DNA from: Escherichia phage slur16 | Strand: one strand, 5' to 3' | Sequence record: NC_028248.1 | Length of the DNA: 64,000 bases | Part shown: positions 1-43,754 of the stretch, piece by piece | Numbering within the stretch: position 1 is the stretch's first letter | Layout of the letters: each line of letters starts with the position of its first letter | Program-made: the position numbers and the translations under genes | The notes under the pieces: generated by a model | What the model was told of the DNA's origin: nothing | The model's database searches: none | Seen by the model: the letters and a program-made list of their open reading frames with translations, nothing else

Positions 1-47
1 ATCCAGTGATAGTATCCACACATCGTTTGGAGAATATGGGATACACA

Positions 48-137
48 ATGAAAACATTGTCAGAGGTTTTGGTGGTGATCCTGATGATCATTACGTCCAT
101 AGTGGCTGTTGCCGGAATACTCACGGGTGGAACATGA
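48..137 (+). CDS. small hydrophobic peptide (29 aa, one predicted TM helix)
   Basis: ATG at 48 with GGAGA upstream; stop overlaps ATG of next ORF (ATGA at 134-137); below the 60-aa track cutoff, found by eye. Confidence 0.25.
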   Translation: MKTLSEVLVVILMIITSIVAVAGILTGGT

Positions 138-346
138 TAAACACACATGCATCTGAAGAGACATCCAAAGGAGTGACTATATGTCCCTTGACTGAGCCAG
201 TGCAAGAGGAAAACTTCGATTCTGAAGATTCTTCATCTTCGCTCCAGGTAGATCCTGAGGCTGATGACCTGACGTGGGAAGACATCGTAGATATCTGGTT
301 CTCTATTATGCCTGAGCACGAAGAGTTCAGGGGTGGTAGACTATGA
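134..346 (+). CDS. hypothetical acidic protein (70 aa)
   Basis: Track ORF; start overlaps the upstream small ORF stop; competes with antisense ORF 121..360. Confidence 0.35.
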   Translation: MINTHASEETSKGVTICPLTEPVQEENFDSEDSSSSLQVDPEADDLTWEDIVDIWFSIMPEHEEFRGGRL

Positions 347-468
347 AGCACCGAGCCCACACCGGTTCCTCATGCTAAAGCATGGCCTGAAGAGGCAAAC
401 GTGCATAATTCCAGCGTATTGGAACGCATAAAACCCTGTTCACACTCTCATTTTCCAGAGGAGATTTC

Positions 469-684
469 ATGAAGATAGAGATATTTGGTGGAGCTGACAA
501 CACTCGTGGCCTGATTTACCTTGAATTCGATGAATCATACCTGCCAGAGGTGTTAAATATAGACTCTGTTGCTGAGGCTTTGGGAGTAAACCCTAAAGAA
601 CTCCACTCTTGTGCTGAGATTGATGGTTGGGAGGAGACCATGAACATTGATTTCAGTGAAGTAGGTGATGAACCACTGGACTGA
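469..684 (+). CDS. hypothetical protein (71 aa)
   Basis: Track ORF; GAGGAG 5 nt upstream of ATG. Confidence 0.45.
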   Translation: MKIEIFGGADNTRGLIYLEFDESYLPEVLNIDSVAEALGVNPKELHSCAEIDGWEETMNIDFSEVGDEPLD

Positions 685-813
685 CACACAATTAGCTGCC
701 CGGTTAAAGTGCTGGAAGCGCACCTATAACACATCTTTCAACTAAATTTCCCACCACCACAATCACTTACCTTCCACACATGACTGTTTGCTTGTTTAGT
801 GAGCAGTCATGCC

Positions 814-841
814 TTGACATTCTTGCCTATCCTGATAAAAT
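814..841 (+). promoter_or_regulatory. sigma70-like promoter (TTGACA-N16-TAAAAT) with no ORF downstream
   Basis: TTGACA at 814-819, TAAAAT at 836-841; followed by hairpin CCGAgtaatTCGG plus T-rich run (~860-885) and a GC-rich ORF-free stretch. Confidence 0.3.
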
Positions 842-1036
842 TAAGTTCTTCTCTTTTCTTTTACCGAGTAATTCGGGTTTTCTGTTCTCTTCGGTTTGAA
901 GGGGTATGGAGATACACCTGAGTGAACAGGGTGAACAACCGAACCATTGGCTATGGCATTAGCATGGCGAAGCGGACGGGTGACGAAAGAGGGGCCGGAG
1001 GACACCAGTCACTGCCATATGATATATGGGTGATAA

Positions 1037-1596
1037 CCTGAAGAGTCTGAATAAGTGTTTAAGTACCAGTCAGAGGAAAAGGTGAATGGTAGCCGAAGGG
1101 GGAGGGGGGTTTCTTGTATCTTTAATTTGTATATTATGTATACACTTGTAAACCAATCTCATCTGAATCTGTTTACCACACAAAGCGGATAGAGACAAAT
1201 ATCACCTATTAAACTTGAATTATTTATAGAAAATACCACAACACCACTTAAGTCTTTGATTTTACACACAAATCCTACAGATATTCAACCTCCATATTTA
1301 ACATACTTGTAACATATTCCATACTCTACCTGTCTGATCAATCTACCCAACCACATCCTTCATATTTTCCCTGTCTGTACCACCCCTGCCCCGCCGGGAG
1401 TCCCGTCATATCTGGCTTTCCAGCAAATATCACACCCACAAATATCATTGCCTGAAGAGGGTTTCATCCCATAATACATGCCTTACCTGAAGAGCGCTTC
1501 ATACACCACGTAAATTTTTTAATTGACCTGCAATTTTCCCGTCATGACCCCCTGCCCCGCCGGAGAGGTTGGCTTTTCCCACACAGACCTGAAGAG
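1037..1596. repeat. dispersed short repeats: cctgaagag x4 and cccctgccccgccgg x2
   Basis: cctgaagag at 1037, 1451, 1486, 1588; cccctgccccgccgg(g)ag at 1383 and 1548. Confidence 0.5.
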
Positions 1597-2165
1597 TCAG
1601 CCAGAAATATCTGAACAGGCCCAATTCTACCACGATTTTGACCTGACCTACAGGAGTGCTGCCAGGCGGACGAAATGGGAATACTTCTCATTCTTATAAC
1701 AATTCTCAAATATCAAGGCAGTGAGGCAAATTAATAGGCTAGGCCGTTCACACAGTGGCACAACATTTGCAACCTATCTTGTGGGGGTGAATGAGAATAC
1801 CTATCATTGTGAGAATAGTTATCATTACGGGCAATTTAACATAATACCCATTATGCGCACCACTGGCGATACATACAGGGATTGATAACATGGGTTACTG
1901 TTTACGCACATAACAATTATATTTCTTATTATTTGTGGGGGATATAGTTAGCAGCCGATAGATTAGATATTAACCTGCAGACTTCTGACCGTCCAGACGT
2001 CTAAACGCCCACACACCAAGGATTATACATACACTCCTGAATGTAAACAGGGCCGCAAAAATGCTACCATACAAGCTTGTAAATTTTTCATGCAGCACTT
2101 GACAAAGAGGAGGAAAACTTGTCTGACACTTTAGACACAATAGTGACACAATATGACATAATTGA

Positions 2166-2310
2166 CATGCATGACTGTTTACGCTCTCATTATTCACGCT
2201 ATTACTATTCACTCCCTTTACTATTCACGCTCTTACTGTTTACATGCTTAATAGTACACATGACCAATAGTTTACATAGCTAACTGTTCACGTATAGACT
2301 ATTTACACAA
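2166..2310. repeat. iteron-like tandem array (~8 copies of ~16-bp unit, consensus ACTRTTYACNC)
   Basis: Tandem units such as attattcacgc, actattcactc, actattcacgc, actgtttacatgc, agtttacatagc, actgttcacg, ctatttacac read directly. Confidence 0.5.
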
Positions 2311-2321
2311 AGATGATAAGA

Positions 2322-2577
2322 CATGCCATTCGTTTGCATGACAATAATTATACATGACAATAATCACACTGATTATAATTAGCATGACATAATATAAAAG
2401 CAGGGCAACTATTAGCAGATCTATAGTTGCCTTGCTTGTTATGTCATGATTAACTAAATACAAGGCAACTATGATCTGATTAATAGTTTGCAGACAAACC
2501 ATCACGGGGGTGATGGTTACTGCTTTTATATTATGTCGCGACTCCGTCGCGCCATGCCATTCGTTTGCATAGTTGCC
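2322..2577. repeat. 18-bp direct repeat pair bracketing three palindromes
   Basis: catgccattcgtttgcat at 2322-2339 and 2553-2570; palindromes ggcaactat/atagttgcc (2404-2431), aaccatca-cggggg-tgatggtt (2497-2518), cgcgac-tcc-gtcgcg (2536-2550). Confidence 0.5.
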
Positions 2578-3231
2578 TTATTGTTACGAATAAAACAATT
2601 GCATTGTTAATGATTTCTTATCTTTCTCTTAGTCATCTAATGATTCCAGTCAGTATAGTAATGTACAGTAAACATTAGACGACTAAAGATTTCTCTGTTT
2701 ATTATAACTCACCGTTATAATTTCGAGCTGTTTACGAAAAATGTTGACATCCTAGCCGATTTATGTTATGCAGTTTACACGAATAATTATTTTATGCAGG
2801 TATTGACTATTCCGTTATTCTATGGTTGGAATAAATACTTAGCAGGCTATAGACTGGTGAGCGTACGTAAATTCTGAGATCTGGCGGCTATAGTTATACT
2901 CGATTTTTCACGTAGAACACGCTTTTGTGGTTATGTAAGTGCATGACTTATAAAGATTTTTAGTTGTTGACAAGATATTGGAGATGTGCATCAGGTTAAA
3001 ATTTGTGCAATAGCGGCATTACGTGCAATTTTGGAAGGGAAAACGGGTAAAAATGGCCTTGCTACCACACAATGAAAAATTATGCAATAGTTATTTTCCA
3101 TGTATATTTGTACAGTGTGCGGGATTGATGGCTCGTCAATTATTCCACTTGCCAGGTAGGGCCGTTTATGGTAGGAAAAGAGAAGACAAAAAGAAAGGGG
3201 CTTTAAGCCCCTGACCGTTCATCTTGTTGTA

Positions 3232-31080: not shown

Positions 31081-31422
31081 CTACTCAAGGTCTTCAGAGT
31101 CAAGCTCAAAAAGAATCAAACTGTGCATGCCTGCAGATAGATTAACACACCCTGAAACAATAAGGGTCTGATAGTAAGGTTCAGCACCCTCAATGTCTTC
31201 GTTAAAATCCACAACAAGGTAGTCACCTTTGTTAAAGGTGTATTTGTCCGATGTAAACGCAAAACCTGCCCAGTCCCCTACTGCAGGGTCTTTATCAGTC
31301 ACCTTTGTTAACAGTAGATCTTTTTCACGGGATCTTTTAGTAAAATCGTGAATCACAACATCCTTCTCTTCAGGAGTTGGATTGCCACACACGTAGTTAA
31401 CTATATTTCTCCACAAACTCAT
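31081..31422 (-). CDS. hypothetical protein (113 aa)
   Basis: Track ORF. Confidence 0.5.
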   Translation of the reverse strand: MSLWRNIVNYVCGNPTPEEKDVVIHDFTKRSREKDLLLTKVTDKDPAVGDWAGFAFTSDKYTFNKGDYLVVDFNEDIEGAEPYYQTLIVSGCVNLSAGMHSLILFELDSEDLE

Positions 31423-32789
31423 ACGTCCCCCTCTTCGGCTCTGGTTTCAAAATCTTTCCTGACAATTTTGTCTAAGTCAGGGAATGTTGTATTGTAAAAC
31501 TCTACGACTCGCGGGTCAACAATAATGTCAACTTCTCTTAGTGGACGCAACAAGTTTATTCCTTGTATTGTCTTAACCCGACTCAAAGCAACATACGTCA
31601 TCCCAGGAGAGAAAGCTCCGTTCTTTCCAAGGTCCAGGTTGTAACAATCTAGCGTAAGTCCTTGACTTTTATGAGATGTTACAGCATACCCAGATTTCAG
31701 AGGAAGTTGCCTGTATGACCCAATCACTACCCTCTCTATAAACTTCTCCATCTTCCTTTCTGCAATGTTGTATCTCTGAGATGGCTTATACTCGTTATTC
31801 TCCCACAACCTTTGCTCTATGTCAACCTGTGTTCCATCTTCAAGCTCTACCACCACTGCCTTGTTCTTAAATTTAACAATTGTGGCACGTGTTCCGTTAA
31901 CATAATAAGGTACTTTGTGCGTCGGGTCAACATCGTTGGCGGTTATCATAACTTTCATGCCAATTTTCAACTTCATCTCCTGCTCAACTGGCAGGGTGGA
32001 GGGAAACTTACCCTTCATTTCACCAGTGTATACCTTCTCTGGGGCGTTGATGGCATCATAGAACCTTCTGTTCACTTCCTCTGCTTGTTTGTTGGTGGCG
32101 CAAATTGTGAGAGCATCTGTTGGTACACCACCTTTGTAACAGCGAGCATTAAGTTCTGCTACAACCTCTTTTATGCGACGACCCTCACGAACACAGTTGA
32201 GCATTGTGGCAAATCGAATAGACTCCTGTCGGAACTGATCTATTAGGGCTATGTTGTGGAGGTCAAGCTCTTTCCAAGATTCGGTATAGCAACACAGGTC
32301 CGTATGGTAGAAGTTGAAATAGGCCTCCTTCTCCATAAAAGAGACAACAGGAGGAGCCTGGTAAAAATCGCCAAACAATATGACCTGTATGCCTCCGAAA
32401 GGTTTGTCATTTTTTCGAAGGAAGCGGAGTTTCCTATCCATCTCTATAAACTTATCAGCACGGATCATAGAGATTTCATCGATAATTAGGATGGTAAATG
32501 CCTTGCTTTTCAAAGGCTTTGCTGTTTTTGCCCTTATTGCGGTCCAGTCTGACTCCATGCTCACACCTGCTGCAAGATCGAAGGTTCGGTGTGCTGTTGC
32601 TCCATTAACGTTTAAAGCGGCTACCCCTGTCGGGGCAACCGTTATGCAAGAGTCTCCATACATTGACTGGATCATGTTGATGAGGTACGTCTTCCCACAA
32701 CCTGCGGGTCCTGAAACGAAGACATTCTCACCACTCATGATTGCAACGAGGGCAGCATCTGTGCCTACATCATACTGCCCTTTTTCCAT
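31419..32789 (-). CDS. SF1 helicase, Dda/PIF1/RecD-like
   Basis: Walker A VSGPAGCGKTY; Walker B ILIIDEISMI; 456 aa. Confidence 0.75.
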   Translation of the reverse strand: MEKGQYDVGTDAALVAIMSGENVFVSGPAGCGKTYLINMIQSMYGDSCITVAPTGVAALNVNGATAHRTFDLAAGVSMESDWTAIRAKTAKPLKSKAFTILIIDEISMIRADKFIEMDRKLRFLRKNDKPFGGIQVILFGDFYQAPPVVSFMEKEAYFNFYHTDLCCYTESWKELDLHNIALIDQFRQESIRFATMLNCVREGRRIKEVVAELNARCYKGGVPTDALTICATNKQAEEVNRRFYDAINAPEKVYTGEMKGKFPSTLPVEQEMKLKIGMKVMITANDVDPTHKVPYYVNGTRATIVKFKNKAVVVELEDGTQVDIEQRLWENNEYKPSQRYNIAERKMEKFIERVVIGSYRQLPLKSGYAVTSHKSQGLTLDCYNLDLGKNGAFSPGMTYVALSRVKTIQGINLLRPLREVDIIVDPRVVEFYNTTFPDLDKIVRKDFETRAEEGDV

Positions 32790-34030
32790 TACGCCTCCTC
32801 GTAAAGAATGTCGATAGTGTTACCGTCACGATCAACTACATATTCAATAGGGTCTCCATCTTTGCGTGCTTCCGGAGCTACCACAATCTCATAGCGGCAT
32901 GCACGGCACTTAGCGCTATTGTGTTGGTATGGCACACTAACCACATCTGCAGGGTCAACCATAACAGTCATTACAGTGCCGTAGCTCTTTGCATACTCTT
33001 TGCTGGCGCAGTGTAAGCCATAGGAGCACGCAGCTTCAGGATCATCCTCTACAAAGTTACGAGGCATGGATACAAAAGCACCTTGGTATTGTGGGACTTT
33101 ACCACTGTGCCAATCCACCCACTTGCTGCCGTTAAACTGAACCCCTTTGTAGCAAATGATTCGACCATCTTCTGCAATCTGGATATCGTTGGCCTGCATA
33201 AAGTCGTAGAGCATGTTTACAGATTTTGCAGAAGGATTGCGTAGCAGGCGAACGAGGAATTTCACATAGCGGTCATCCAGTGTTCCGTCTGCATAATCTT
33301 TCTCAATTTTCTTTGCAATGGTGGATCGCATCTCTACACCGTAGTAGTAGAGCTTACCATCTTTCATGATCAGGTTGTCTGCAAGTGTGGTGAACTCATT
33401 CTTGCGTTCCAGCCAGACAAGGATTTCACCAATTGCCTCATCATATTCCTGAACAGAGATATGGTCGAAGACTTTCTGGTAAACTTCCTCACTTTCGCTG
33501 CGGCGAATTTCAAAAATGCCTTCGTTGCAGGTGATCTGGAGGAGTTCCCCGCAAATAACTACCAAAGGTTCGATGCTTCGAGTCTGTTGCTGAGACACAC
33601 TACTCACCACTTCCAGCACCGGATCTTTGACTTCTACTAAAGGTTCTTCTGACTTGATTGCTACTCCAGTGAACCCCACACCGTGAACAACACACAGTGG
33701 GTATACCACGCCCCAACGTTTAACGGAACCTTCGCCTAAATCTAAGATCATGGCGTACTTACCGTTATCTTCCAGACCGTATCGAAATAAACGGGCTTCT
33801 TCGCGGGTTTCAAAATCCTCACGGGTGTAGCAGACGCTGTCACGGTCAGGATCGAACAACTCTGGGGCACCCACTGCCAGTGTCCAGGTTGTGTCGCCTT
33901 TCTCAATAGTACATGTGAAACCCTTCTTCTCAAGTTCTGCACGGCGGTCGCGTGCTTCTTTACGAGTTTTGAAGTGTTCGTAGATGAAAATCATAACTGT
34001 CTCCTTATTTGGTGTTATTCTTTGTATCAA
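32789..34030 (-). CDS. hypothetical protein, possible rIIB-like partner of the upstream GHKL ATPase
   Basis: Positional only: immediately downstream of the rIIA-like gene with overlapping start/stop. Confidence 0.3.
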   Translation of the reverse strand: MIQRITPNKETVMIFIYEHFKTRKEARDRRAELEKKGFTCTIEKGDTTWTLAVGAPELFDPDRDSVCYTREDFETREEARLFRYGLEDNGKYAMILDLGEGSVKRWGVVYPLCVVHGVGFTGVAIKSEEPLVEVKDPVLEVVSSVSQQQTRSIEPLVVICGELLQITCNEGIFEIRRSESEEVYQKVFDHISVQEYDEAIGEILVWLERKNEFTTLADNLIMKDGKLYYYGVEMRSTIAKKIEKDYADGTLDDRYVKFLVRLLRNPSAKSVNMLYDFMQANDIQIAEDGRIICYKGVQFNGSKWVDWHSGKVPQYQGAFVSMPRNFVEDDPEAACSYGLHCASKEYAKSYGTVMTVMVDPADVVSVPYQHNSAKCRACRYEIVVAPEARKDGDPIEYVVDRDGNTIDILYEEA

Positions 34031-36484: not shown

Positions 36485-36504
36485 AATAACTCCAAATAGA
36501 AAAT

Positions 36505-36520
36505 CCCCGCCGAAGCGGGG
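36505..36520 (-). terminator. intrinsic terminator hairpin
   Basis: Minus strand ccccgcttcggcgggg followed by attttctattt; same 16-mer at 62751-62766. Confidence 0.55.
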
Positions 36521-36533
36521 GAGGTCTTAGAAA

Positions 36534-36914
36534 TCAATCGTAGTGTGCCAAAATCTCTCCATCGTTGCAAGTTCCCTCTACAAAGTTATGAAGATTCATG
36601 CACTCATCTTGATAGAAGAATTTACCGCTTTTCAGCCGTAAGCCAAACAACTCCGCATCTCCACGATGGCAAGCCTCTACAAGTTCATAGATTTCATACG
36701 GCAACTCTCCGTCGTCATGGAAGAACCCAGCCTTATCGTTGACATAGATGAAGAAATAATCACTGCTATCGCAAGCGTCCAATATTTCAAACCAGATTTC
36801 ATCTACATCTTTTTCTCGGATATCGATCACGCAAGTGGAGCTGCATTCGTACTCCTTCTCCGGCTCTTCGGTCAATACTACCAGGTAGTTTCCCCGCTTA
36901 CCTACTTTAGCCAT
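36534..36914 (-). CDS. hypothetical acidic protein (126 aa)
   Basis: Track ORF. Confidence 0.5.
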   Translation of the reverse strand: MAKVGKRGNYLVVLTEEPEKEYECSSTCVIDIREKDVDEIWFEILDACDSSDYFFIYVNDKAGFFHDDGELPYEIYELVEACHRGDAELFGLRLKSGKFFYQDECMNLHNFVEGTCNDGEILAHYD

Positions 36915-36923
36915 ACAACCTCC

Positions 36924-38108
36924 TCAAGCTTTAGCCAAAATGGCGCTAAACTCTTCACCAAACTCTTTTACAATCTTCATCAGGTTTGGGTATGCTTTAA
37001 TCAGCTGAGCAACAATCTTGTCACGCCCTTTACCGATAAGCAAGGCATTTCCTAAGGCATTAGGTTTCATCATCGCCATAAAGACTGAGAATACAAAATC
37101 TCGGTTCTCGTCCTTGAAATTTTCCCAAAGGAAATCGAGGAAGTTTGCCACACAGCTAACAAGATCTTCGTCGGAGATACTTGCATTTTCCATCATATTA
37201 CGAATAGCGATACAACCTTCAGACCCAAGAATCCACAAGATGTCTGGCTGTTTAGGACCTATGTATTCTTTGCAACCCCCTGCCATAATCCGACCGATTT
37301 CCGGTAAGTTGCGTTTCTTGGTGTGGTAGGTCCAGATCTCTACCGCTGCAGTGTGACCAATAGCACCTTGCAGAAGAACACGGGCCATAGCGTCAGAAAT
37401 AATACCGCTGTCAAAATCGTGCAAGATGTCAGATGCAGCAACCCAAGATCGCGGTGTGGCAAAAGATGGACAATTAATCTCAGCCATAGCCTCATAATTA
37501 TCGATAGCTGATGGAACTCTTTTCAGATACCCAATTACAGAGGAGTGCACCCCATTGAGGAATGCGTAGTCCTCAATAAACACCTCTGCATTGCTTGTAA
37601 CCTCTACAATGATAAAGCGGTTAGCCAGAGGAGCTTCGAGCGCCGAAAGAACAGCACCATCTGTAGAACGGTTACCCGCAGCCACAAAAACAGAGCCTTT
37701 AGGGAATGCATAGGTGCCGCACTTGTGGTCGAGCATAATCTGCATTGCAACCTTTTGCAGATAGTTATCTGCATGAGTAAGCTCATCCAGAAAGATAATT
37801 CCACCCCAGTTCGGATCTGCAGGCCAAAATTCTGGAATTGCAAACACTGTACGTGTAGTTCCATCAGCTTCTACAGGGATAGGTAGCCCAGATAAGTCGG
37901 CAGGATCTTTATCTGACAGCCGCACGTCAACCAGGTTGTCATCTCGCTCACCGAACATATTATCGGCGATCTGCTTCATCACCTGGCTCTTTCCCACGCC
38001 CATTGGTCCTAAAATCAGGACAGATCGGTTATGACGCTGGGCAAACTGAATGATAGCTGGCAACTCACGGACAGTGATTTGACCACTTTCAAATACGTTT
38101 CTTGACAT
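36924..38108 (-). CDS. AAA+ ATPase, MoxR / CobS-like
   Basis: Walker A LILGPMGVGKSQ; Walker B GIIFLDELTHA; 394 aa. Confidence 0.7.
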   Translation of the reverse strand: MSRNVFESGQITVRELPAIIQFAQRHNRSVLILGPMGVGKSQVMKQIADNMFGERDDNLVDVRLSDKDPADLSGLPIPVEADGTTRTVFAIPEFWPADPNWGGIIFLDELTHADNYLQKVAMQIMLDHKCGTYAFPKGSVFVAAGNRSTDGAVLSALEAPLANRFIIVEVTSNAEVFIEDYAFLNGVHSSVIGYLKRVPSAIDNYEAMAEINCPSFATPRSWVAASDILHDFDSGIISDAMARVLLQGAIGHTAAVEIWTYHTKKRNLPEIGRIMAGGCKEYIGPKQPDILWILGSEGCIAIRNMMENASISDEDLVSCVANFLDFLWENFKDENRDFVFSVFMAMMKPNALGNALLIGKGRDKIVAQLIKAYPNLMKIVKEFGEEFSAILAKA

Positions 38109-38416
38109 TAGTAAAAGTCCTCTACTTGTGTGTAAGTGTTTTCAAAGTTTTCCAAAACAGATGCCACATCGGATCTGTCAATATCGTACACAACTTCCCA
38201 GTTGTATGCAACCCTTTCTGCTGTTGCTTCTTCAGGACTTAGCCGTCTACTGGGGTGAAAGAATGTTGGGGTACACCTTCTTAGTTGTCTTCCGGTTTTC
38301 CCATAACAATATCTGTGGATAACTTTGTCAAAATTTAACTCTTTTTCTGCACAAAGTTCGTGTTTCTGGTATAACATGTTTATTACTCTTCTAAGCGGCA
38401 TCCCTGCCACCACCAC
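38108..38416 (-). CDS. hypothetical protein (102 aa)
   Basis: Track ORF; stop overlaps the MoxR start. Confidence 0.45.
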   Translation of the reverse strand: MVVAGMPLRRVINMLYQKHELCAEKELNFDKVIHRYCYGKTGRQLRRCTPTFFHPSRRLSPEEATAERVAYNWEVVYDIDRSDVASVLENFENTYTQVEDFY

Positions 38417-38419
38417 CTG

Positions 38420-38800
38420 CTAGAATGCAGTTCGAATCCAGACAAGGTTCTTATCTGCCCAATCATAGAGGCAAGTCATTGCGCTATTGAATTGCTCACA
38501 CGGAGGATAATCTTCTTCCATCTGGCGCATAGCAGAGCCTTGTGGGTAAAGCTCCCGTGCTGCAAGCCACGCATCGTAGTCATCCACGGTATCGAAGTAG
38601 TATACAACATCCTCCAACTCAGGATCGAACTTTGAATTATCAGGATCCAGTTGTTCAGGGAACTTGGAGCGTAACTTGCCAGCCACAATGCTTGCCAACT
38701 CGCTAACATGCTTATTGTCCCACTCTACTAGTTTCCCGTCTTCAGCGATGCGTCCTAACCACTGATCATGAAGGTCAACTGTTGTCTTCCACCGGGCCAT
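38420..38800 (-). CDS. hypothetical protein (126 aa)
   Basis: Track ORF. Confidence 0.45.
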   Translation of the reverse strand: MARWKTTVDLHDQWLGRIAEDGKLVEWDNKHVSELASIVAGKLRSKFPEQLDPDNSKFDPELEDVVYYFDTVDDYDAWLAARELYPQGSAMRQMEEDYPPCEQFNSAMTCLYDWADKNLVWIRTAF

Positions 38801-38802
38801 TA

Positions 38803-39060
38803 TCAGTCCACCTCTTCTTCTCGTTGCAGTTCAAGATACCCGTAGGTCTGGATATCTTCAAGGGTGTGGAAATCCCCATCTGCCGCTAAGGCACGAACAA
38901 CTTGGCACAAAACTTTATGAGGAACTTCATCCAGACCCAGATTCAGTGCAGGGAACACCTTATCTAAGTCAACAAAATAAACGAACTGTAGCTCACCAGC
39001 TTCAAAAGGTGTATCTTCAATAAACATCTTCTCGGCATTAGTCAAGATCTGCACTTTCAT
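38803..39060 (-). CDS. hypothetical acidic protein (85 aa)
   Basis: Track ORF. Confidence 0.45.
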   Translation of the reverse strand: MKVQILTNAEKMFIEDTPFEAGELQFVYFVDLDKVFPALNLGLDEVPHKVLCQVVRALAADGDFHTLEDIQTYGYLELQREEEVD

Positions 39061-39437
39061 TATTCTGCCTCCTCTTCTTTTTCTTCGGCGTTAGTTTCAG
39101 TGCTACCCCACTCTGGAGTTTCCACCTCGATAGTAAACTCACGCACTACACGGTAATTGCCCATGAAGCGCTCCACCTCGTCAAGGCTTATGGCGAGGCC
39201 ATTGGAAACCAGGTCTGCAGCACCCTCTTCTACCAGATAGTCCAGATTGGCTTCCAAAGCTTCAGGCTCGAACCCTGTCAATGCAATCAGATAACCTTTC
39301 CCTTCATCAGGTAGGACAATACAGCCCAACTGATTTTCTTTAAAAAGGCAGTGACCATCATTATTGATGGGGTGTTCATTGCAGTAAATAGCTGCACGAT
39401 AAGTAGCTTTAGACATCGGTAAGGCCTCCTTAGGCAA
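39060..39437 (-). CDS. hypothetical protein (125 aa)
   Basis: Track ORF. Confidence 0.45.
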   Translation of the reverse strand: MPKEALPMSKATYRAAIYCNEHPINNDGHCLFKENQLGCIVLPDEGKGYLIALTGFEPEALEANLDYLVEEGAADLVSNGLAISLDEVERFMGNYRVVREFTIEVETPEWGSTETNAEEKEEEAE

Positions 39438-39708
39438 TTGTCATTTTACATTCTTGAAATTTTAACACAAGACGGTGATTGTGTCTAGTGTCTAAAAAGA
39501 TTTTTTCAACCATCAGGCACACGGTATAACCGTCCATCTTGTTAACAACAAAATCTCCAGGGTGAGGGAGGATGTCCCCTGGATTGGGGAAACATAACCC
39601 GCTCAAGAAGGCATCATCGGTGGTGGACTTAATGGATTTCCACACATTGTCTGCCTGAACATTTTCACCCACATAGTATACACTACCACATGCCTTCATC
39701 ATAGTCAA
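39430..39708 (-). CDS. hypothetical protein (92 aa)
   Basis: Track ORF. Confidence 0.4.
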   Translation of the reverse strand: MTMMKACGSVYYVGENVQADNVWKSIKSTTDDAFLSGLCFPNPGDILPHPGDFVVNKMDGYTVCLMVEKIFLDTRHNHRLVLKFQECKMTIA

Positions 39709-40604
39709 ATCTCCGCGTAAATTAAACTGGAATCAGTATACTTCTTTAACGGGTAAATATCCTGTCCATAGATGCCGTCATTAAACACCTCATCTACCCA
39801 AAGGCTACACTTATATCCCATCATTTCTAAAACGCCCATCTCTTCTTCGGTGAACTTATCACCGCTCTTGCAAGATGTCAATACCTCATTCTGTACTCTT
39901 GCTACCTCGAAGCGGTTATTGGCAATATCACTATTGGCAATCAAATACTCACCTAAAGGGTGTGCAGCATTAAAGATGCACAGTGGACGGTTGACGTAAT
40001 AGTCTCCCGGTGTATAAAAATTGTTGAGATCCTTCACCAGAACATTCTTATCAGTCACTTCATTTATAACATCATGCATATCACACATCTTTATATGTTT
40101 GAGGATTCCATCCCCCATCACAAAATAAAAACTTGCTGAGACACTCTCGGCATAGATCTTACTAGATCCGTTGTAGTTGTATTTTACGCGAATGCTTACA
40201 GGGGTTTTGCCTGTCGCGTTAGCCATCATCCAAAGGAACGGAAGTTCAAACCTCTCCTCTGAGGAAACAAAAGGTGAAGTTGCCAGAGATCGGAAACCTC
40301 CAGAAAAGTTGAAAGTTACAGAGCCGCTCCGGCGGTATGATACCGCGTATTCTACTTTTATATCGACGTACCCATTGGAATAGGTGTGTCCTTCATTATC
40401 TAAATATGTCCACTTATCAGACCCAGATACCAATCTACGCTCAATAACCTTCATCACTACAGGAATTAGTGGGTTGGTACAAACCGCTTTTGAAGTAGCT
40501 TTATCATCTAAAGCCTCGTAAATTGCAGAAAGGATGTCCCCAGCTGAAAGATTGGTTGTTATGTCCTGTTTCCACCGCGTACTAAAACTGTTAAGATTTG
40601 CCAT
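39705..40604 (-). CDS. hypothetical protein (299 aa), first gene of the leftward unit
   Basis: Track ORF; start faces the divergent intergenic region 40605-40680. Confidence 0.5.
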   Translation of the reverse strand: MANLNSFSTRWKQDITTNLSAGDILSAIYEALDDKATSKAVCTNPLIPVVMKVIERRLVSGSDKWTYLDNEGHTYSNGYVDIKVEYAVSYRRSGSVTFNFSGGFRSLATSPFVSSEERFELPFLWMMANATGKTPVSIRVKYNYNGSSKIYAESVSASFYFVMGDGILKHIKMCDMHDVINEVTDKNVLVKDLNNFYTPGDYYVNRPLCIFNAAHPLGEYLIANSDIANNRFEVARVQNEVLTSCKSGDKFTEEEMGVLEMMGYKCSLWVDEVFNDGIYGQDIYPLKKYTDSSLIYAEI

Positions 40605-40683
40605 AAGTAAGTGCTCCTATGTTAGTTTTCTTTCGAATGGGTGCACTATATTGTGGAGTTAGAGTAAAGTCAACACGTTTTTG

Positions 40684-41724
40684 ATGTTGACATCTGTTGA
40701 GACAATTGATACGATTTCTTCACTTACAGAGCACGAGAGACGACTCATGAATCTTGAAAAATATTATACACCAGAAGAGTTAGAGCGCTTGCTCAAAAAA
40801 TATAGACGCAAACAGAATAACGCACGGAAACGAGATATAGAGTTCGACCTGTCATGGGAAGAATACCTCCTATTTGGTAAAAAACTTTTAGGGGAGGGGG
40901 TATGCGACTACACCCTTATACCTTTCGACATGCACACAGATGAAAACGGACTGGGAAATCCTTTCTACCCATCTCTGGAGCGGATAGATGATGAAGGTCC
41001 TTACGCAATTGATAATTGTTGTGTGGTAGGGTTGAGGTGCAATGCTCTGAAAGACTGTCTGGTAGATAAAAAGACTGCAATCCTGATTAAAGACAAAACT
41101 GATCGAAAAATTGTCCAGCAGATGATGCTCCACCTGAGCGAAGAGCGTATGGAGAAATTGAAAGGTGATTATACTTTTGAAGATTTCATCTTGCAATACG
41201 GGACAGAAGAAGATAAACTAGCACTATTTGACGAAGAGGAGGAAGATATGTCACCAATGCAGGACTTTAAAAATTTCATGGCTGATCGTGCAGCCAACAA
41301 ACACATTTCAGACATCGTAAACGAGACTGTGGCAGAAGAAATTGAAGAACAGAACTCTGAAGAGGAAAAAGATCCTCAGGAGGTCGAAGAGGAGATTGCA
41401 GAAGAAGTTCCTGCACTGCCTGATGATGTTGAGATTGCTAAGGCTTACACTTTCTATTGTCAAACGTTCTACGATGCAGGTATGAAAGTTGATCTGTCGT
41501 TCAGCCAATTTAAGAGTTCGTATATTCGCAAATGCTGTGCTTTAACTGGTGAACGTCTCGGAGCTGGACTTAAACCACTGTTGGTGACCGACTGGAATAA
41601 AGGTTTCACTAAAGGAAACTTTATGGTAGTATCTCCAATTATGGAGAAAGCTATGACAGATCTTATGAAGACCACCCGCATGACAATGACCGAGTTGGCA
41701 GGTATTTTCAAACACGTTAAATAA
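40684..41724 (+). CDS. protein with two degenerate HNH / endonuclease VII-like repeats and an acidic linker
   Basis: Repeat 1 DLSWEEY…CDYT…SLERIDDEGPYAIDNCCVVGLRCNALK; repeat 2 DLSFSQF…CALTGERL…LLVTDWNKGFTKGNFMVVSPIMEKAM; track TTG start 40681, no clear RBS. Confidence 0.4.
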   Translation: MLTSVETIDTISSLTEHERRLMNLEKYYTPEELERLLKKYRRKQNNARKRDIEFDLSWEEYLLFGKKLLGEGVCDYTLIPFDMHTDENGLGNPFYPSLERIDDEGPYAIDNCCVVGLRCNALKDCLVDKKTAILIKDKTDRKIVQQMMLHLSEERMEKLKGDYTFEDFILQYGTEEDKLALFDEEEEDMSPMQDFKNFMADRAANKHISDIVNETVAEEIEEQNSEEEKDPQEVEEEIAEEVPALPDDVEIAKAYTFYCQTFYDAGMKVDLSFSQFKSSYIRKCCALTGERLGAGLKPLLVTDWNKGFTKGNFMVVSPIMEKAMTDLMKTTRMTMTELAGIFKHVK

Positions 41725-41736
41725 TGACAGGGGCCA

Positions 41737-43218
41737 ATGGCCCCTTCTGGAGTTTTAATGGATAGCAGAAGTTCAGAAATCATTGCCTCACAGAAAGATG
41801 ATGCCCTGAGAATGTTGCAGGCTGCACGTATGTATCTCCTTGAAAAGCTGCCGTTTTATGGCACACTGCTGTCAGGGTTGCAGTTCGTAGAAAACCACAC
41901 ATGGTGCTCCACCATGGCAACCGACCATAAACGCATTTATTACAGCCCTGAGTTCATTATGGGATTGGCTGATGAACGCAAGGCTATTCTTAAGGCTTCT
42001 CTAACTGACGAGCAGTTTGAGATGGCTGAAGTTTTCTATTCCCCAAAATCTGTGAAAGAGGTGGCCTTCCTTCTGTCACATGAGGTGGGGCATATTATCT
42101 GTGATCACCTGGTCCGTGGTAAAAGCTTTGAGCCGGAACTGTTCAATATTGCTTGTGATCACGTTATCAACACAGGTCTTGTGGTTGACTTTAGCAAGCC
42201 TCCTTGTGTTTTCTTCCCGAAGGGGAAAAGCACTACGTTCGTGAAAGGCAAGCCTTTTGGCTTCTTAGCTAACTGCTACTGCGACATGAAGTTTCATGGA
42301 TGGATTGCTGAGAACGTCTATGCAGTTCTTGATAAGCAAAGAGATCAGAATAACGGTAAAAGTAAGAGCGGTAAAGGTGAGAACTCTCAAGGAGATAAGC
42401 GACAAACCGATGATCACATGAGTGGGAACGGTGGCACCAGTGATGATCTTGGAAAGGCTATGGGGTATGATCAGCCACAACCTGTAATCAGCCAATCTGA
42501 TAAAGATCAGGCCATGCAGGACTCTGGCGATATGCTGGAGGCAGCAATGCAAGCGTCCGGAGGTCGTTGCCCTGAGGCGGTTCGTGAGTTTGTCAAGAAT
42601 AGAGGTAAGCCTGTAATCAATTATATAGACATCATCAAGCAGCGTATGTTGTCTAAAAGAAAGGCCGAACTGACCTACAGAAAACCTGGTCGCCGATCTG
42701 GGTCTTTGACCAGCACAATGCGAAAAGTCGGAGCTATAAACAAGAACCAGCACGTTATTGTTCCTGGTCGTAATCCGGAAAACACTATAGATATTGTGGT
42801 GGCTTTAGACGTTTCTGGCTCGATCTCTCAAAGAACTTTAAAGAAAATGTTCAATGAAATCACCGGATTGTGCAATCTGTATAAAGAATTTAAGGTTACA
42901 ATGTTCTGTTGGTCAACTGAGGTTGGAGAGGTTAAAGTATACACTCGCGGCAACATAGACGAAATGATCAACTATGAGGTCCACTCAACATGGGGAACAA
43001 CAGCTGCTTGCGTGTTCGAGTATCTGGATGCCAACATACCAAATGCAAAAGATGTCATCGTCCTGACCGACCTATACTTTGAGCATAACTTTGAACAAAA
43101 GGCTGTTGACAACAAGTGGAAAAAGTACGATACTTTATGGGTTCTAACCGAAGGGTATAATAAAAATTATATCCCTAGCTTTGGTAAAACTGTGGAATTA
43201 ATCGAGTACGCTAAGTAA
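41737..43218 (+). CDS. VWA-domain protein with N-terminal HExxH metallopeptidase-like domain
   Basis: HExxH at SHEVGHIICDH; MIDAS-like VVALDVSGSIS; 493 aa. Confidence 0.65.
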   Translation: MAPSGVLMDSRSSEIIASQKDDALRMLQAARMYLLEKLPFYGTLLSGLQFVENHTWCSTMATDHKRIYYSPEFIMGLADERKAILKASLTDEQFEMAEVFYSPKSVKEVAFLLSHEVGHIICDHLVRGKSFEPELFNIACDHVINTGLVVDFSKPPCVFFPKGKSTTFVKGKPFGFLANCYCDMKFHGWIAENVYAVLDKQRDQNNGKSKSGKGENSQGDKRQTDDHMSGNGGTSDDLGKAMGYDQPQPVISQSDKDQAMQDSGDMLEAAMQASGGRCPEAVREFVKNRGKPVINYIDIIKQRMLSKRKAELTYRKPGRRSGSLTSTMRKVGAINKNQHVIVPGRNPENTIDIVVALDVSGSISQRTLKKMFNEITGLCNLYKEFKVTMFCWSTEVGEVKVYTRGNIDEMINYEVHSTWGTTAACVFEYLDANIPNAKDVIVLTDLYFEHNFEQKAVDNKWKKYDTLWVLTEGYNKNYIPSFGKTVELIEYAK

Positions 43219-43224
43219 GAGAGG

Positions 43225-43491
43225 ATGTTATTTATGGCAACAGAGGTAGTAATTAAAGCTGAACGCCCAGTTAAAAAAGCTATCAACACGTTCCCTGTGG
43301 GAACCATTGTGAGCATGATCACAGAGTCAGGTCGTGTATCTACGCTGCTGATTGTGAAATCTGCATGTTCTTCTTGTGTGTGGGCTTACGATCTGGACGA
43401 GAAAGAACTAAAAGATTTTGTTGGGGAGCTGAAAGCAACCGAGCTCGATGCTCGTATCGAAGTATTTGGTGAAACTATGGAGGAAGAGTAA
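43225..43491 (+). CDS. hypothetical protein (88 aa)
   Basis: Track ORF; GAGAGGA before ATG. Confidence 0.45.
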   Translation: MLFMATEVVIKAERPVKKAINTFPVGTIVSMITESGRVSTLLIVKSACSSCVWAYDLDEKELKDFVGELKATELDARIEVFGETMEEE

Positions 43492-43754
43492 TGACCACGA
43501 AAATCACTATTGCAGAACCGAAAGCTAACACTCAACCCATCGAAAAGTTTAAATGCGGTGAGGTGGTAACATTTACGCCAGATAATGAAGATGCTAAGAT
43601 TTTCGCCATGGTCACAGCTGAGTGGATGTGTGACAACACCACACAGGTTCTGCGTTTTGACACCTACCTTACAGATGAAATCAGGAACGATAAGATCGTG
43701 ACTGGTGTAGATACTGAAATTATTTTCTACAAGAGCTTTTTAGAGGGTTTCTAA
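43491..43754 (+). CDS. hypothetical protein (87 aa)
   Basis: Track ORF; ATG overlaps upstream stop. Confidence 0.45.
   Translation: MTTKITIAEPKANTQPIEKFKCGEVVTFTPDNEDAKIFAMVTAEWMCDNTTQVLRFDTYLTDEIRNDKIVTGVDTEIIFYKSFLEGF

What the first reader, a model, noticed from the sequence alone, without database searches (positions are those of the whole stretch)
36924..43218. Split MoxR AAA+ ATPase / VWA-metallopeptidase module around a divergent promoter
ORF 36924..38108 (-) has Walker A (GPMGVGKS) and Walker B (IIFLDEL) motifs of MoxR-type ATPases. ORF 41737..43218 (+) combines an HExxH motif with a MIDAS-like DVSGS in its C-terminal half. vWA-MoxR pairs are known in bacteria as chaperone or conflict modules; their role in a lytic phage is unclear. 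Here the two genes sit on opposite strands across a switch at 40605-40680, with six unknown genes between MoxR and the switch, and a protein with two degenerate HNH-like repeats directly before the VWA gene.
Basis: partly seen in the sequence, partly recalled or inferred. Interest (0 to 1): 0.6.

Follow-up and report, generated by a model that had tools for sequence, protein, structure and literature searches.

The report
Split phage MoxR ATPase–VWA-peptidase pair
This E. coli phage carries a known, widespread two-gene set (an ATP-driven remodelling motor and its metal-binding protease-like partner) that here lies on opposite sides of a divergent promoter; a recent screen of a near-identical phage shows the motor gene is not needed for lab growth but is needed to overcome a bacterial defence system.

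Summary
The window is Escherichia phage slur12, an rV5-like Vequintavirus. ORF 36924-38108(-) is a MoxR-class AAA+ ATPase. It has intact Walker A/B, sensor and arginine residues, and its predicted fold is closest to CbbQ and NorQ. ORF 41737/41758-43218(+) is a DUF2201_N zincin (HExxH) fused to a VWA domain with a complete MIDAS site.

In 68 of 71 assessable viral loci, and in a bacterium, N4-like phages, jumbo phages and Certrevirus-like relatives, the two genes are adjacent and co-directional (ATPase first). The split across a back-to-back sigma70-like promoter pair is a derived rearrangement, shared by Vequintavirus and phages like Salmonella phage SalP219.

The pair is already annotated in relatives and was described for jumbo phages in 2021. 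N4 gp24/gp25 appear to be the same pair. A 2025 transposon-sequencing preprint on phage Bas54 (both proteins 99% identical) found both genes dispensable on E. coli K-12. On clinical strain CFE311 the ATPase was strongly required (log2FC -7.2) and a knockout tied it to defence system DS-28. The peptidase gene was also depleted (log2FC -2.2, adjusted p 0.009).

The most likely role is an early anti-defence remodeller/protease. The mechanism is inferred. Novelty is low and interest is moderate.

The parts
36924..38108 (-). MoxR-class AAA+ ATPase, 394 aa. Walker A at 37986-38009, Walker B at 37779-37799. Orthologue of bas54_0063.
41758..43218 (+). DUF2201_N zincin-like metallopeptidase fused to a VWA/MIDAS domain, 486 aa (493 aa if counted from the ATG at 41737). 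HEVGH at 42079-42093, DVSGS at 42808-42822. Orthologue of bas54_0055.
40645..40715 (.). Back-to-back divergent sigma70-like promoters. Minus strand: TTGACT (from 40673), 17 nt, TATAGT (to 40645). Plus strand: TTGACA (40687), 17 nt, TACGAT (40715), with TG before the -10. The two -35 boxes are the arms of the inverted repeat 40669-40691.
   Evidence: Consensus scan, each 10 of 12 matches. The region as a whole is not enriched for promoter-like sites (15 found, 12.4 expected). Sequence. Hexamers are conserved in four Vequintavirus relatives, with substitutions in the spacer, and a TTGACA-17-GATAAT promoter is kept in the 54%-identity relative L090.
40605..40746 (.). Intergenic strand-switch region between the two arms (revised boundaries).
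   Evidence: ORF map. Start of the plus-strand gene reassigned to ATG 40747 as in Bas54/Bas56 annotation. GC-skew sign change.
40747..41724 (+). Srd-like protein, annotated 'anti-sigma factor' in relatives, directly upstream of the VWA gene. It is a neighbour, not a conserved part of the module.
   Evidence: phrog_3118 E=1e-110, plus Srd and endonuclease VII-type PHROG profiles on the N-terminal half. Conserved in L090 but absent next to the pair in L088 and L089. The Bas54 orthologue has no phenotype on CFE311 (log2FC -0.08).
38108..40604 (-). Six small or unknown genes between the switch and the ATPase. They are cargo of the rearranged arm, not conserved partners. The last one (38108-38416) overlaps the ATPase start as TAATG.
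   Evidence: ORFs. No Pfam, NCBIfam or PADLOC hits. Only one (38420-38800) has a homologue in L090, and none in L088 or L089. Bas54 orthologues 0057-0062 are non-essential and not depleted on CFE311. TAATG overlap.
41731..41745 (.). GC-rich hairpin GGGGCC-AAT-GGCCCC between the Srd-like gene and the VWA gene. It contains the upstream in-frame ATG at 41737.
   Evidence: Sequence. Reported as terminator-like only on the minus strand. Function not tested.

Best explanation
The two ORFs are the two halves of an ancient, widespread phage (and bacterial) two-gene module: a MoxR-class AAA+ ATPase and its cognate partner, a zincin-like metallopeptidase fused to a VWA/MIDAS domain.

In most lineages the genes are adjacent and co-transcribed, ATPase first. 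In the common ancestor of Vequintavirus and phages like Salmonella phage SalP219, a rearrangement around a pair of back-to-back host-type (sigma70-like) promoters moved the ATPase to the other arm. Both genes would then still be transcribed from the same early control region.

Proposed mechanism, by analogy with CbbQ-CbbO, NorQ-NorD and midasin:
1. The VWA MIDAS metal site captures an acidic residue of a target protein.
2. The hexameric ATPase docks on the VWA partner and uses ATP to remodel or partly unfold the target.
3. The tethered zincin domain cleaves it.

The module is an accessory host-takeover or anti-defence device, not a morphogenetic one. Its target is probably a component of the DS-28 defence system, or a phage or host protein whose state triggers that system.

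Shown: homology, intact active sites, conserved linkage, dispensability on K-12, and the ATPase's requirement against DS-28 in a phage with 99%-identical proteins.

Inferred: early timing, physical ATPase-VWA interaction, proteolysis, and the identity of the target.
For: - Family assignment and invariant catalytic residues.
- Folds: ATPase closest to CbbQ, NorQ, midasin and dynein; C-terminal domain is VWA, with NorD VWA from NorQ-NorD complexes among the top hits.
- Linkage: adjacent and same strand in Sulfurivermis fontis, 155-kb marine phage contigs and an N4-like Sulfitobacter phage. Adjacent in 68 of 71 assessable viral loci.
- Same genus profile of the two genes across sequenced phages, 672 versus 811 records. 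Adjacent in CR8, PEV2, KP13-7 and ShWW44; split in SalP219.
- Stepwise series: adjacent (L088), four genes inserted on the same strand (L089), split across the switch (L090 and the window).
- Promoters.
- Function in Bas54 (MaxBurger), same gene order, proteins 99% identical. Both genes non-essential on K-12: 60 of 64 and 81 of 86 TA sites disrupted. On UPEC CFE311 the ATPase has log2FC -7.23 (adjusted p about 0) and the metallopeptidase -2.20 (adjusted p 0.009), while flanking genes 0053, 0054, 0056-0062 and 0064 are unaffected, which argues against polar effects. A clean 0063 knockout was reported as specifically required to overcome cloned DS-28.
- N4 gp24/gp25 are core genes of N4-like phages and middle transcripts.
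- A MoxR/vWA pair lies in a deletable island of Bacillus phage 0305phi8-36.
Against: - The peptidase mutant phenotype on CFE311 is much weaker than the ATPase's (about 4.6-fold versus more than 100-fold). The preprint does not name the peptidase as an anti-DS-28 factor; it names the unrelated bas54_0140. The ATPase may therefore act largely without the peptidase.
- No interaction, ATPase, protease or target data exist for any member of this phage family.
- The N-terminal zincin has no solved relative, and its third metal ligand is not established.
- The ATPase's own Pfam AAA_5/AAA_3 scores are below the gathering thresholds.
- Early timing rests on consensus promoter matches only, and promoter-like sites are not enriched overall in the region. 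No rV5-like transcriptome was found.
- The DS-28 result comes from an unreviewed preprint in a sister phage, not slur12, and the domain content of DS-28 could not be retrieved.
- The 80-locus survey is dominated by two lineages at 50% identity.
Confidence: 0.5

Rival explanations
1. Functionally uncoupled genes. After the split, the ATPase alone (perhaps with bas54_0140-like partners) counters DS-28, and the VWA-peptidase has a separate or residual role.
For: The genes are physically separated on opposite strands. The phenotypes on CFE311 are very different, -7.23 versus -2.20. The preprint pairs the ATPase with bas54_0140, not the peptidase. One viral contig (L064) has an ATPase homologue with no DUF2201 gene within 10 kb. 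The ATPase is found in more phage records than the partner, 811 versus 672.
Against: Both genes are retained at 93-100% nucleotide identity in more than 110 Vequintavirus records, with all catalytic residues intact. Both are depleted in the same host while their neighbours are not. Adjacency is nearly universal elsewhere. Both genes remain under the same divergent control region.
Confidence: 0.2
2. Cofactor-insertion or enzyme-activation chaperone, like CbbQ-CbbO, NorQ-NorD or CobS-CobT. The pair matures or reactivates a phage or host metalloenzyme, for example in nucleotide metabolism, and the DS-28 phenotype is indirect.
For: The closest solved relatives are CbbQ and NorQ for the ATPase and NorD VWA for the partner. 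In marine and N4-like phages the pair sits among thymidylate synthase, ThyX, dUTPase and exonuclease genes. N4 gp24/gp25 are middle-class genes.
Against: The invariant HExxH zincin domain has no counterpart in CbbO, NorD or CobT. There are no Pfam hits to the CobS, CobT or CbbQ_C families. The genes are dispensable on K-12, and the ATPase becomes essential with a specific cloned defence system.
Confidence: 0.15
3. Virion-assembly chaperone plus maturation protease, as proposed for the same architecture in group 2.2 jumbo phages and by analogy with the ATV tail-development MoxR/VWA proteins.
For: Proposed by Iyer et al. 2021. The ATV precedent is cited.
Against: Both genes tolerate transposon insertions at about 94% of TA sites with normal growth on K-12. 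They lie in an early or middle-type region next to rIIA/rIIB, behind sigma70-like promoters, not in the structural module. N4 gp24/gp25 are middle transcripts, not late ones.
Confidence: 0.07

Closest known systems
Escherichia phage MaxBurger (Bas54) bas54_0063 'MoxR ATPase' and bas54_0055 'putative metallopeptidase' (HIDEN-SEQ preprint, bioRxiv 10.1101/2025.11.20.689424)
   Same: Same genus and same gene order, with proteins 99% identical. The genetic results therefore transfer almost directly.
   Different: A different isolate. The phenotypes were not measured in slur12. The preprint does not link the metallopeptidase to the ATPase or to DS-28.
MoxR AAA+ / metallopeptidase-vWA 'chaperone-cochaperone pair' of group 2.2 jumbo phages (Iyer et al. 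2021, PMC7824862)
   Same: The same two-protein architecture. Jumbo-phage homologues were recovered here for both proteins and are adjacent, for example in Klebsiella phage KP13-7.
   Different: There the genes are adjacent and a virion-assembly role was proposed. Here they are split, the genome is 137 kb, and the genetic data argue against an assembly role.
N4 gp24 (unknown) / gp25 (vWFA domain), core genes of N4-like phages (PMC4193335)
   Same: In N4-like phages the protein upstream of the DUF2201 gene is a homologue of the window's ATPase (E=3e-17). The genes are adjacent and belong to the non-structural middle region.
   Different: Only 21-27% identity. The genes are adjacent rather than split. 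They are core in N4-like phages, and their essentiality is untested in the sources read.
CbbQ-CbbO and NorQ-NorD (CGN-type MoxR ATPase with a VWA/MIDAS adaptor)
   Same: Best structural matches for both the ATPase and the VWA domain. The same ATPase-plus-MIDAS-adaptor logic applies.
   Different: The partners lack a zincin peptidase domain. They activate Rubisco or insert iron into nitric oxide reductase, they are cellular rather than viral, and sequence identity is only 10-20%.
Bacterial AAA_5 + DUF2201 operons (e.g. Sulfurivermis fontis, L003)
   Same: A homologous pair (ATPase 33% identical, E=8e-38), adjacent and co-directional.
   Different: Chromosomal, of unknown function. It lacks the roughly 35-40-residue insertions and the long ATPase C-terminal extension seen in the rV5-like proteins.
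vWA-MoxR ternary conflict systems (Kaur et al. 2020, PMC7159879)
   Same: A MoxR plus vWA core used in biological conflict.
   Different: Those are host-side systems with a third component (VMAP, FtsH-like or beta-propeller) and variable effectors. No third conserved gene and no PADLOC hit were found here.

Membership tests
MoxR-class AAA+ ATPase (helix-2-insert clade; Pfam AAA_3 PF07726 / AAA_5 PF07728) | Walker A (GxxGxGKS/T), Walker B (hhhhDE), sensor 1 Asn, arginine finger and sensor 2 Arg all present | tested here: met
   G34-S41, D108/E109, N146, R147, R164 and R220 are invariant across 29-31 homologues down to 23% identity.
MoxR-class AAA+ ATPase (helix-2-insert clade; Pfam AAA_3 PF07726 / AAA_5 PF07728) | Scores above the curated Pfam threshold for AAA_3 or AAA_5 | tested here: inconclusive
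   The window protein itself scores AAA_5 17.8 bits against a cut-off of 22, with no AAA_3 hit. Homologues at E about 1e-43 (31-36% identity over 77-92% of the query) carry PF07726, PF07728 and in some cases PF20030 bpMoxR. A family profile hits midasin at E=1e-10.
MoxR-class AAA+ ATPase (helix-2-insert clade; Pfam AAA_3 PF07726 / AAA_5 PF07728) | Fold closest to MoxR members, with beta-hairpin insertions before Walker B and before sensor 1 | tested here: met
MoxR-class AAA+ ATPase (helix-2-insert clade; Pfam AAA_3 PF07726 / AAA_5 PF07728) | Genomic pairing with a VWA-domain partner gene | tested here: met
   Adjacent in 68 of 71 viral loci, in a bacterium, and in N4-like, jumbo and CR8-like phages. 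In this window the partner is 3.6 kb away on the other strand.
MoxR-class AAA+ ATPase (helix-2-insert clade; Pfam AAA_3 PF07726 / AAA_5 PF07728) | Hexameric ring with ATPase or remodelling activity | not testable with these tools
   Needs biochemistry or a multimer prediction.
VWA domain with MIDAS | DxSxS...T...D metal-ion-dependent adhesion site | tested here: met
   D358, S360, G361, S362, G420, T421, T444 and D445 are invariant in 36 sequences. Coordinates verified.
VWA domain with MIDAS | VWA fold and profile match | tested here: met
DUF2201_N zincin-like metallopeptidase (Pfam PF13203) | Profile match above the curated threshold, and an HExxH motif | tested here: met
   99.5 bits against a cut-off of 23.2. 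H115, E116 and H119 are invariant.
DUF2201_N zincin-like metallopeptidase (Pfam PF13203) | Identified third zinc ligand and demonstrated peptidase fold or activity | tested here: inconclusive
   H124 and D141 are invariant candidates. There are only weak profile hits to the MJ1213 minigluzincin, BepA and HtpX (E 0.007-0.6). Fold searches returned no peptidase matches because VWA hits dominate. Activity is untestable here.
Phage anti-defence gene against DS-28 (bas54_0063 type) | Orthology to the experimentally tested gene | tested here: met
   389 of 393 residues identical, in the same synteny.
Phage anti-defence gene against DS-28 (bas54_0063 type) | Loss-of-function phenotype on DS-28-bearing cells in this phage | not testable with these tools
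   Only the literature on Bas54 is available.
vWA-MoxR ternary conflict systems (VMAP / FtsH / beta-propeller types) | Conserved third component and effector domains | tested here: not met
   No gene other than the pair is conserved next to it across L088-L090. No PADLOC match apart from a marginal P-loop hit.
Cobaltochelatase CobS/CobT-like or CbbQ/CbbO proper | CobS_N, CobT or CbbQ_C profile matches | tested here: not met
   None were reported at E<=0.01 in Pfam or NCBIfam.
HNH endonuclease (the PHROG/GenBank label of the VWA-peptidase family, phrog_1314) | HNH / His-Me finger profile or motif | tested here: not met
   Pfam finds only DUF2201_N and DUF2201. The fold is a helical zincin-like domain plus VWA. 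The label appears to be an annotation error.

The most novel reading that the evidence does not exclude
The MoxR ATPase and the VWA-zincin protein together form a phage-encoded, ATP-driven, MIDAS-targeted protease that recognises and destroys or disassembles a bacterial immune protein (DS-28 in E. coli). The same machine, conserved as core genes in N4-like phages and present in several hundred sequenced phages (rV5-like, jumbo, marine myoviruses), would then be a general, retargetable anti-defence 'degrader', a mechanistic class not yet described for phage counter-defence.
Probability: 0.25. Interest if true: 0.7.

Novelty: already known. Interest (0 to 1): 0.35.

Why it matters
The gene pair itself is not new. 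It is annotated as MoxR ATPase and metallopeptidase in sister phages, it has been described as a chaperone-cochaperone pair in jumbo phages, and the ATPase of a 99%-identical orthologue has just been shown genetically to counter a defence system.

This analysis adds four things:
- A demonstration that the two separated genes are the halves of one of the most consistently linked accessory gene pairs in phages, and that N4 gp24/gp25 appear to be the same pair.
- A reconstruction of how the split arose.
- The observation, from the preprint's own tables, that the partner peptidase is also significantly depleted on the same host. The preprint text does not mention this.
- Arguments against the earlier virion-assembly hypothesis.

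If the pair works as an ATP-driven targeted protease against host immunity, that would assign a function to a core gene pair of N4-like phages and to several hundred phage genomes. The needed knockouts and the cloned defence system already exist.

Tried and rejected
- The search for related loci with the diverse DUF2201 alignment failed on both collections because no conserved 7-10-column stretch exists. I used the ATPase alignment instead, so the survey is anchored on the ATPase and is dominated by two lineages at 50% identity.
- Sequence search of PDB with the VWA-peptidase gave nothing. A profile search gave only VWA hits and weak M48/minigluzincin hits. Both fold searches of the full model were dominated by the VWA domain, so the zincin domain's fold relatives remain unresolved.
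- NCBIfam gave no useful names. PADLOC gave nothing. Rfam and tRNA scans of the window were empty.
- The internal repeat in the Srd-like protein was not significant by BLASTP.
- DS-28 was traced to the DefensePredictor preprint, but its domain composition is only in a figure and the supplements are not held. No target-based mechanistic inference was possible.
- CRISPRi-ART and a second transposon preprint had no data on this pair. No rV5-like transcriptome or virion proteome covering these genes was found.
- A 'D-x-H' motif in the disordered linker looked conserved in the alignment but is present in only about half of the family, so I do not rely on it.
- I first assumed Bas54 was phage AlexBoehm. 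Its locus tags show it is Bas56; Bas54 is MaxBurger.

Full report
**Identity of the window.** The region 36500-43500 is 100% identical to Escherichia phage slur12 (LN881735.1). It is 93-98% identical to more than 110 other rV5-like phages of the genus Vequintavirus. In several of these records the two genes in question are already labelled 'MoxR ATPase' and 'metallopeptidase'.

**Check of the observation.**
The four motifs are at verified coordinates: Walker A GPMGVGKS at 37986-38009(-), Walker B IIFLDEL at 37779-37799(-), HEVGH at 42079-42093(+), and DVSGS at 42808-42822(+).
- The motifs are not chance strings. In an alignment of 36 DUF2201 proteins down to 21% identity, the invariant columns are exactly H115, E116, H119, H124, D141 and the full MIDAS signature D358, S360, G361, S362 ... 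G420, T421 ... T444, D445. In 29-31 ATPase homologues, Walker A, Walker B, N146/R147, R164 and R220 (full-protein numbering) are invariant.
- Pfam gives DUF2201_N (E=3.4e-28) and DUF2201/VWA-like (E=3.6e-11), both above the curated cut-offs.
- Three details need correction. The VWA gene most likely starts at ATG 41758, which has a GGAG 5 nt upstream and matches the 486-aa annotation of relatives; the 41737 ATG lies in the loop of a GC hairpin. The preceding gene most likely starts at ATG 40747, which makes the intergenic switch 40605-40746. The 'two HNH-like repeats' are only half supported: the N-terminal half matches Srd, endonuclease and endonuclease VII PHROG profiles, but the two halves are not significantly similar to each other.

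**What the two proteins are.**
- The ATPase's own Pfam AAA hits are sub-threshold. It nevertheless has thousands of homologues, and the nearest cellular and marine ones (E about 1e-43) carry AAA_3, AAA_5 and sometimes bpMoxR domains.
- A family profile finds midasin in PDB (E=1e-10).
- The zincin domain has no solved close relative. There are only weak profile matches to a minigluzincin and to M48 proteases.

**Are they a pair?** Yes, and strikingly so.
- In Sulfurivermis fontis an AAA_5 gene that is 33% identical to the window's ATPase sits directly upstream of a DUF2201 gene.
- The same holds in 155-kb marine phage contigs and in an N4-like Sulfitobacter phage, where the upstream 392-aa 'unknown' is a homologue of the ATPase (E=3e-17).
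- I fetched 80 viral loci through the ATPase alignment and scored them with HMMs of both families. Of 71 loci with enough downstream DNA, 68 have the DUF2201 gene immediately downstream on the same strand, with a median gap of about 75 nt. That sample is dominated by two lineages at 50% identity, so the breadth of the claim rests on the additional, independent examples.
- Across 50,697 sequenced phage genomes the two proteins have nearly the same genus profile, 672 versus 811 records. They are adjacent in Cronobacter phage CR8, Pseudomonas phage PEV2, jumbo Klebsiella phage KP13-7 and E. coli phage ShWW44, but split in Salmonella phage SalP219.
- No third gene travels with the pair, and PADLOC finds nothing. 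This is a two-gene module, not one of the ternary vWA-MoxR conflict systems.

**How the split arose.** Three increasingly close relatives form a series.
- In L088 (ATPase 36% identical) the genes are adjacent, three small genes downstream of a divergent switch. The SleB-like hydrolase and a PIF1 helicase are on the other arm.
- In L089 (43%) four small genes separate them on the same strand.
- In L090 (54%) and in the window, the ATPase has moved to the hydrolase/rIIA/rIIB/PIF1 arm and the partner stays on the other arm.
- The split is therefore a derived rearrangement around the switch, not two independent acquisitions.
- The switch carries two back-to-back sigma70-like promoters, each matching 10 of 12 positions, whose -35 boxes are the arms of an inverted repeat. 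The hexamers are conserved in relatives while the spacer varies, and the 54%-identity relative keeps a TTGACA-17-GATAAT promoter on the partner's arm. I infer that both genes are early and co-regulated. This is not shown: the scan is consensus-only, promoter-like sites are not enriched over shuffles in the region, and I found no transcriptome for this phage group.

**What it does.**
- Earlier work noted the same architecture in group 2.2 jumbo phages and proposed a virion-assembly and processing role (Iyer et al. 2021). N4 gp24 and gp25 (vWFA), which appear to be the same pair since the N4-like Sulfitobacter phage's upstream gene is an ATPase homologue, are core genes of N4-like phages and middle transcripts.
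- The decisive evidence is a 2025 preprint (HIDEN-SEQ) on phage Bas54. I identified Bas54 as Escherichia phage MaxBurger. It has the same gene order as the window, and its proteins are 99% identical to the window's.
- On E. coli K-12 both genes are non-essential: 60 of 64 and 81 of 86 TA sites tolerated insertions. That argues against an assembly function.
- On the uropathogenic strain CFE311, insertions in the ATPase vanish (log2FC -7.23, adjusted p about 0). A clean knockout was reported as specifically required to overcome the cloned two-gene system DS-28.
- The preprint's table also shows, although its text does not mention it, that the metallopeptidase is significantly depleted on the same host (log2FC -2.20, adjusted p 0.009). 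Its immediate neighbours (0053, 0054, 0056-0062, 0064) are not depleted, which rules out simple polarity. The sheet labelled CFE303 actually repeats the CFE311 analysis.
- DS-28 comes from the DefensePredictor study. Its domain content could not be retrieved.

**Mechanism.**
- Combining the anatomy with what is established for CbbQ-CbbO, NorQ-NorD and midasin, I propose an ATP-driven remodeller/protease. In those systems the MIDAS site binds an acidic residue of the client and the AAA+ ring provides the force. Here the VWA domain would select the target, the ATPase would remodel it, and the tethered zincin would cut it. The target would be a DS-28 component or a protein whose state triggers DS-28.
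- The main weakness is the roughly thirty-fold smaller effect of peptidase insertions. This leaves room for the ATPase acting mostly alone (rival 1).
- A cofactor-insertion or enzyme-activation role (rival 2) fits the structural neighbours and the nucleotide-metabolism context in other phages, but it does not explain the invariant HExxH domain.
- The assembly hypothesis (rival 3) is the least compatible with the data.

**Verdict.** The feature is an already known and annotated gene pair whose biological role has very recently begun to be uncovered. The split arrangement is a lineage-specific rearrangement of modest interest. The useful outcome is a sharpened, directly testable hypothesis that the partner peptidase belongs to the anti-DS-28 function, and that N4 gp24/gp25 and the jumbo-phage pairs are the same device.

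Noticed in passing
window 1-3000: An ORF-poor stretch, dense in short direct repeats (22-mers at 2176-2243; ACTGTTTACGC-type copies at 1888, 2165 and 2274; an exact 18-mer at 2322 and 2553) and inverted repeats (2386-2403/2520-2537 at 100%; 2398-2412/2423-2437). [quoted passage not shown] It is a candidate essential cis element, such as an iteron-type origin.
   Followed up: partly
window 41758-43218 and phage records: PHROG phrog_1314 labels this metallopeptidase-VWA family 'HNH endonuclease'. The label has spread into many GenBank phage records. Nothing in the sequence or fold supports it.
   Followed up: yes
window 38108-38416 (-): This small ORF is labelled 'ATPase' or 'MoxR ATPase' in PHROGs and some records, but it has no P-loop motif and no family hit. 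Its stop overlaps the ATPase start (TAATG), which suggests translational coupling. The Bas54 orthologue 0062 has no phenotype.
   Followed up: partly
window 39705-40604 (-): This gene is annotated 'putative alpha 1-3 fucosyltransferase' in relatives. It has no Pfam, NCBIfam or PADLOC hit, only an unknown-function PHROG. The name looks unsupported.
   Followed up: partly
window 41731-41745: A perfect GC hairpin, GGGGCC-AAT-GGCCCC, lies between the Srd-like gene and the VWA-peptidase gene and encloses the upstream in-frame ATG. It could be an attenuator or an RNA-stability element. This was not tested.
   Followed up: no
window ~31400-32800 (-), by synteny with bas54_0068: The PIF1-type DNA helicase orthologue in Bas54 is also strongly depleted on CFE311 (log2FC -6.32, adjusted p about 0). 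The preprint's text does not discuss it.
   Followed up: no
public records MG0656xx: Sixteen records named 'Campylobacter phage', with host C. jejuni, are 96-98% identical to these E. coli rV5-like phages across the region. They may be mislabelled or contaminant genomes.
   Followed up: no
L064 9947-11185: This is the only long viral contig in the survey (61.6 kb) where an ATPase homologue, 28% identical over its full length including the C-terminal extension, has no DUF2201 gene within 10 kb. It may be another split or a loss of the partner.
   Followed up: no
window 42370-42470 (linker of the VWA-peptidase, residues ~210-250): The low-confidence acidic/glycine-rich linker contains a T-D-D-H motif (residue 224). 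A [hydrophobic]-D-x-H motif recurs at a similar distance from HExxH in about half of the family. It could be an internal MIDAS or zinc ligand, which is speculative.
   Followed up: partly
HIDEN-SEQ Extended Data Table 8: The sheet labelled 'resampling_K-12_vs_CFE303' contains the command line and numbers of the K-12 versus CFE311 comparison, so the CFE303 results for Bas54 are not actually in the file held.
   Followed up: yes
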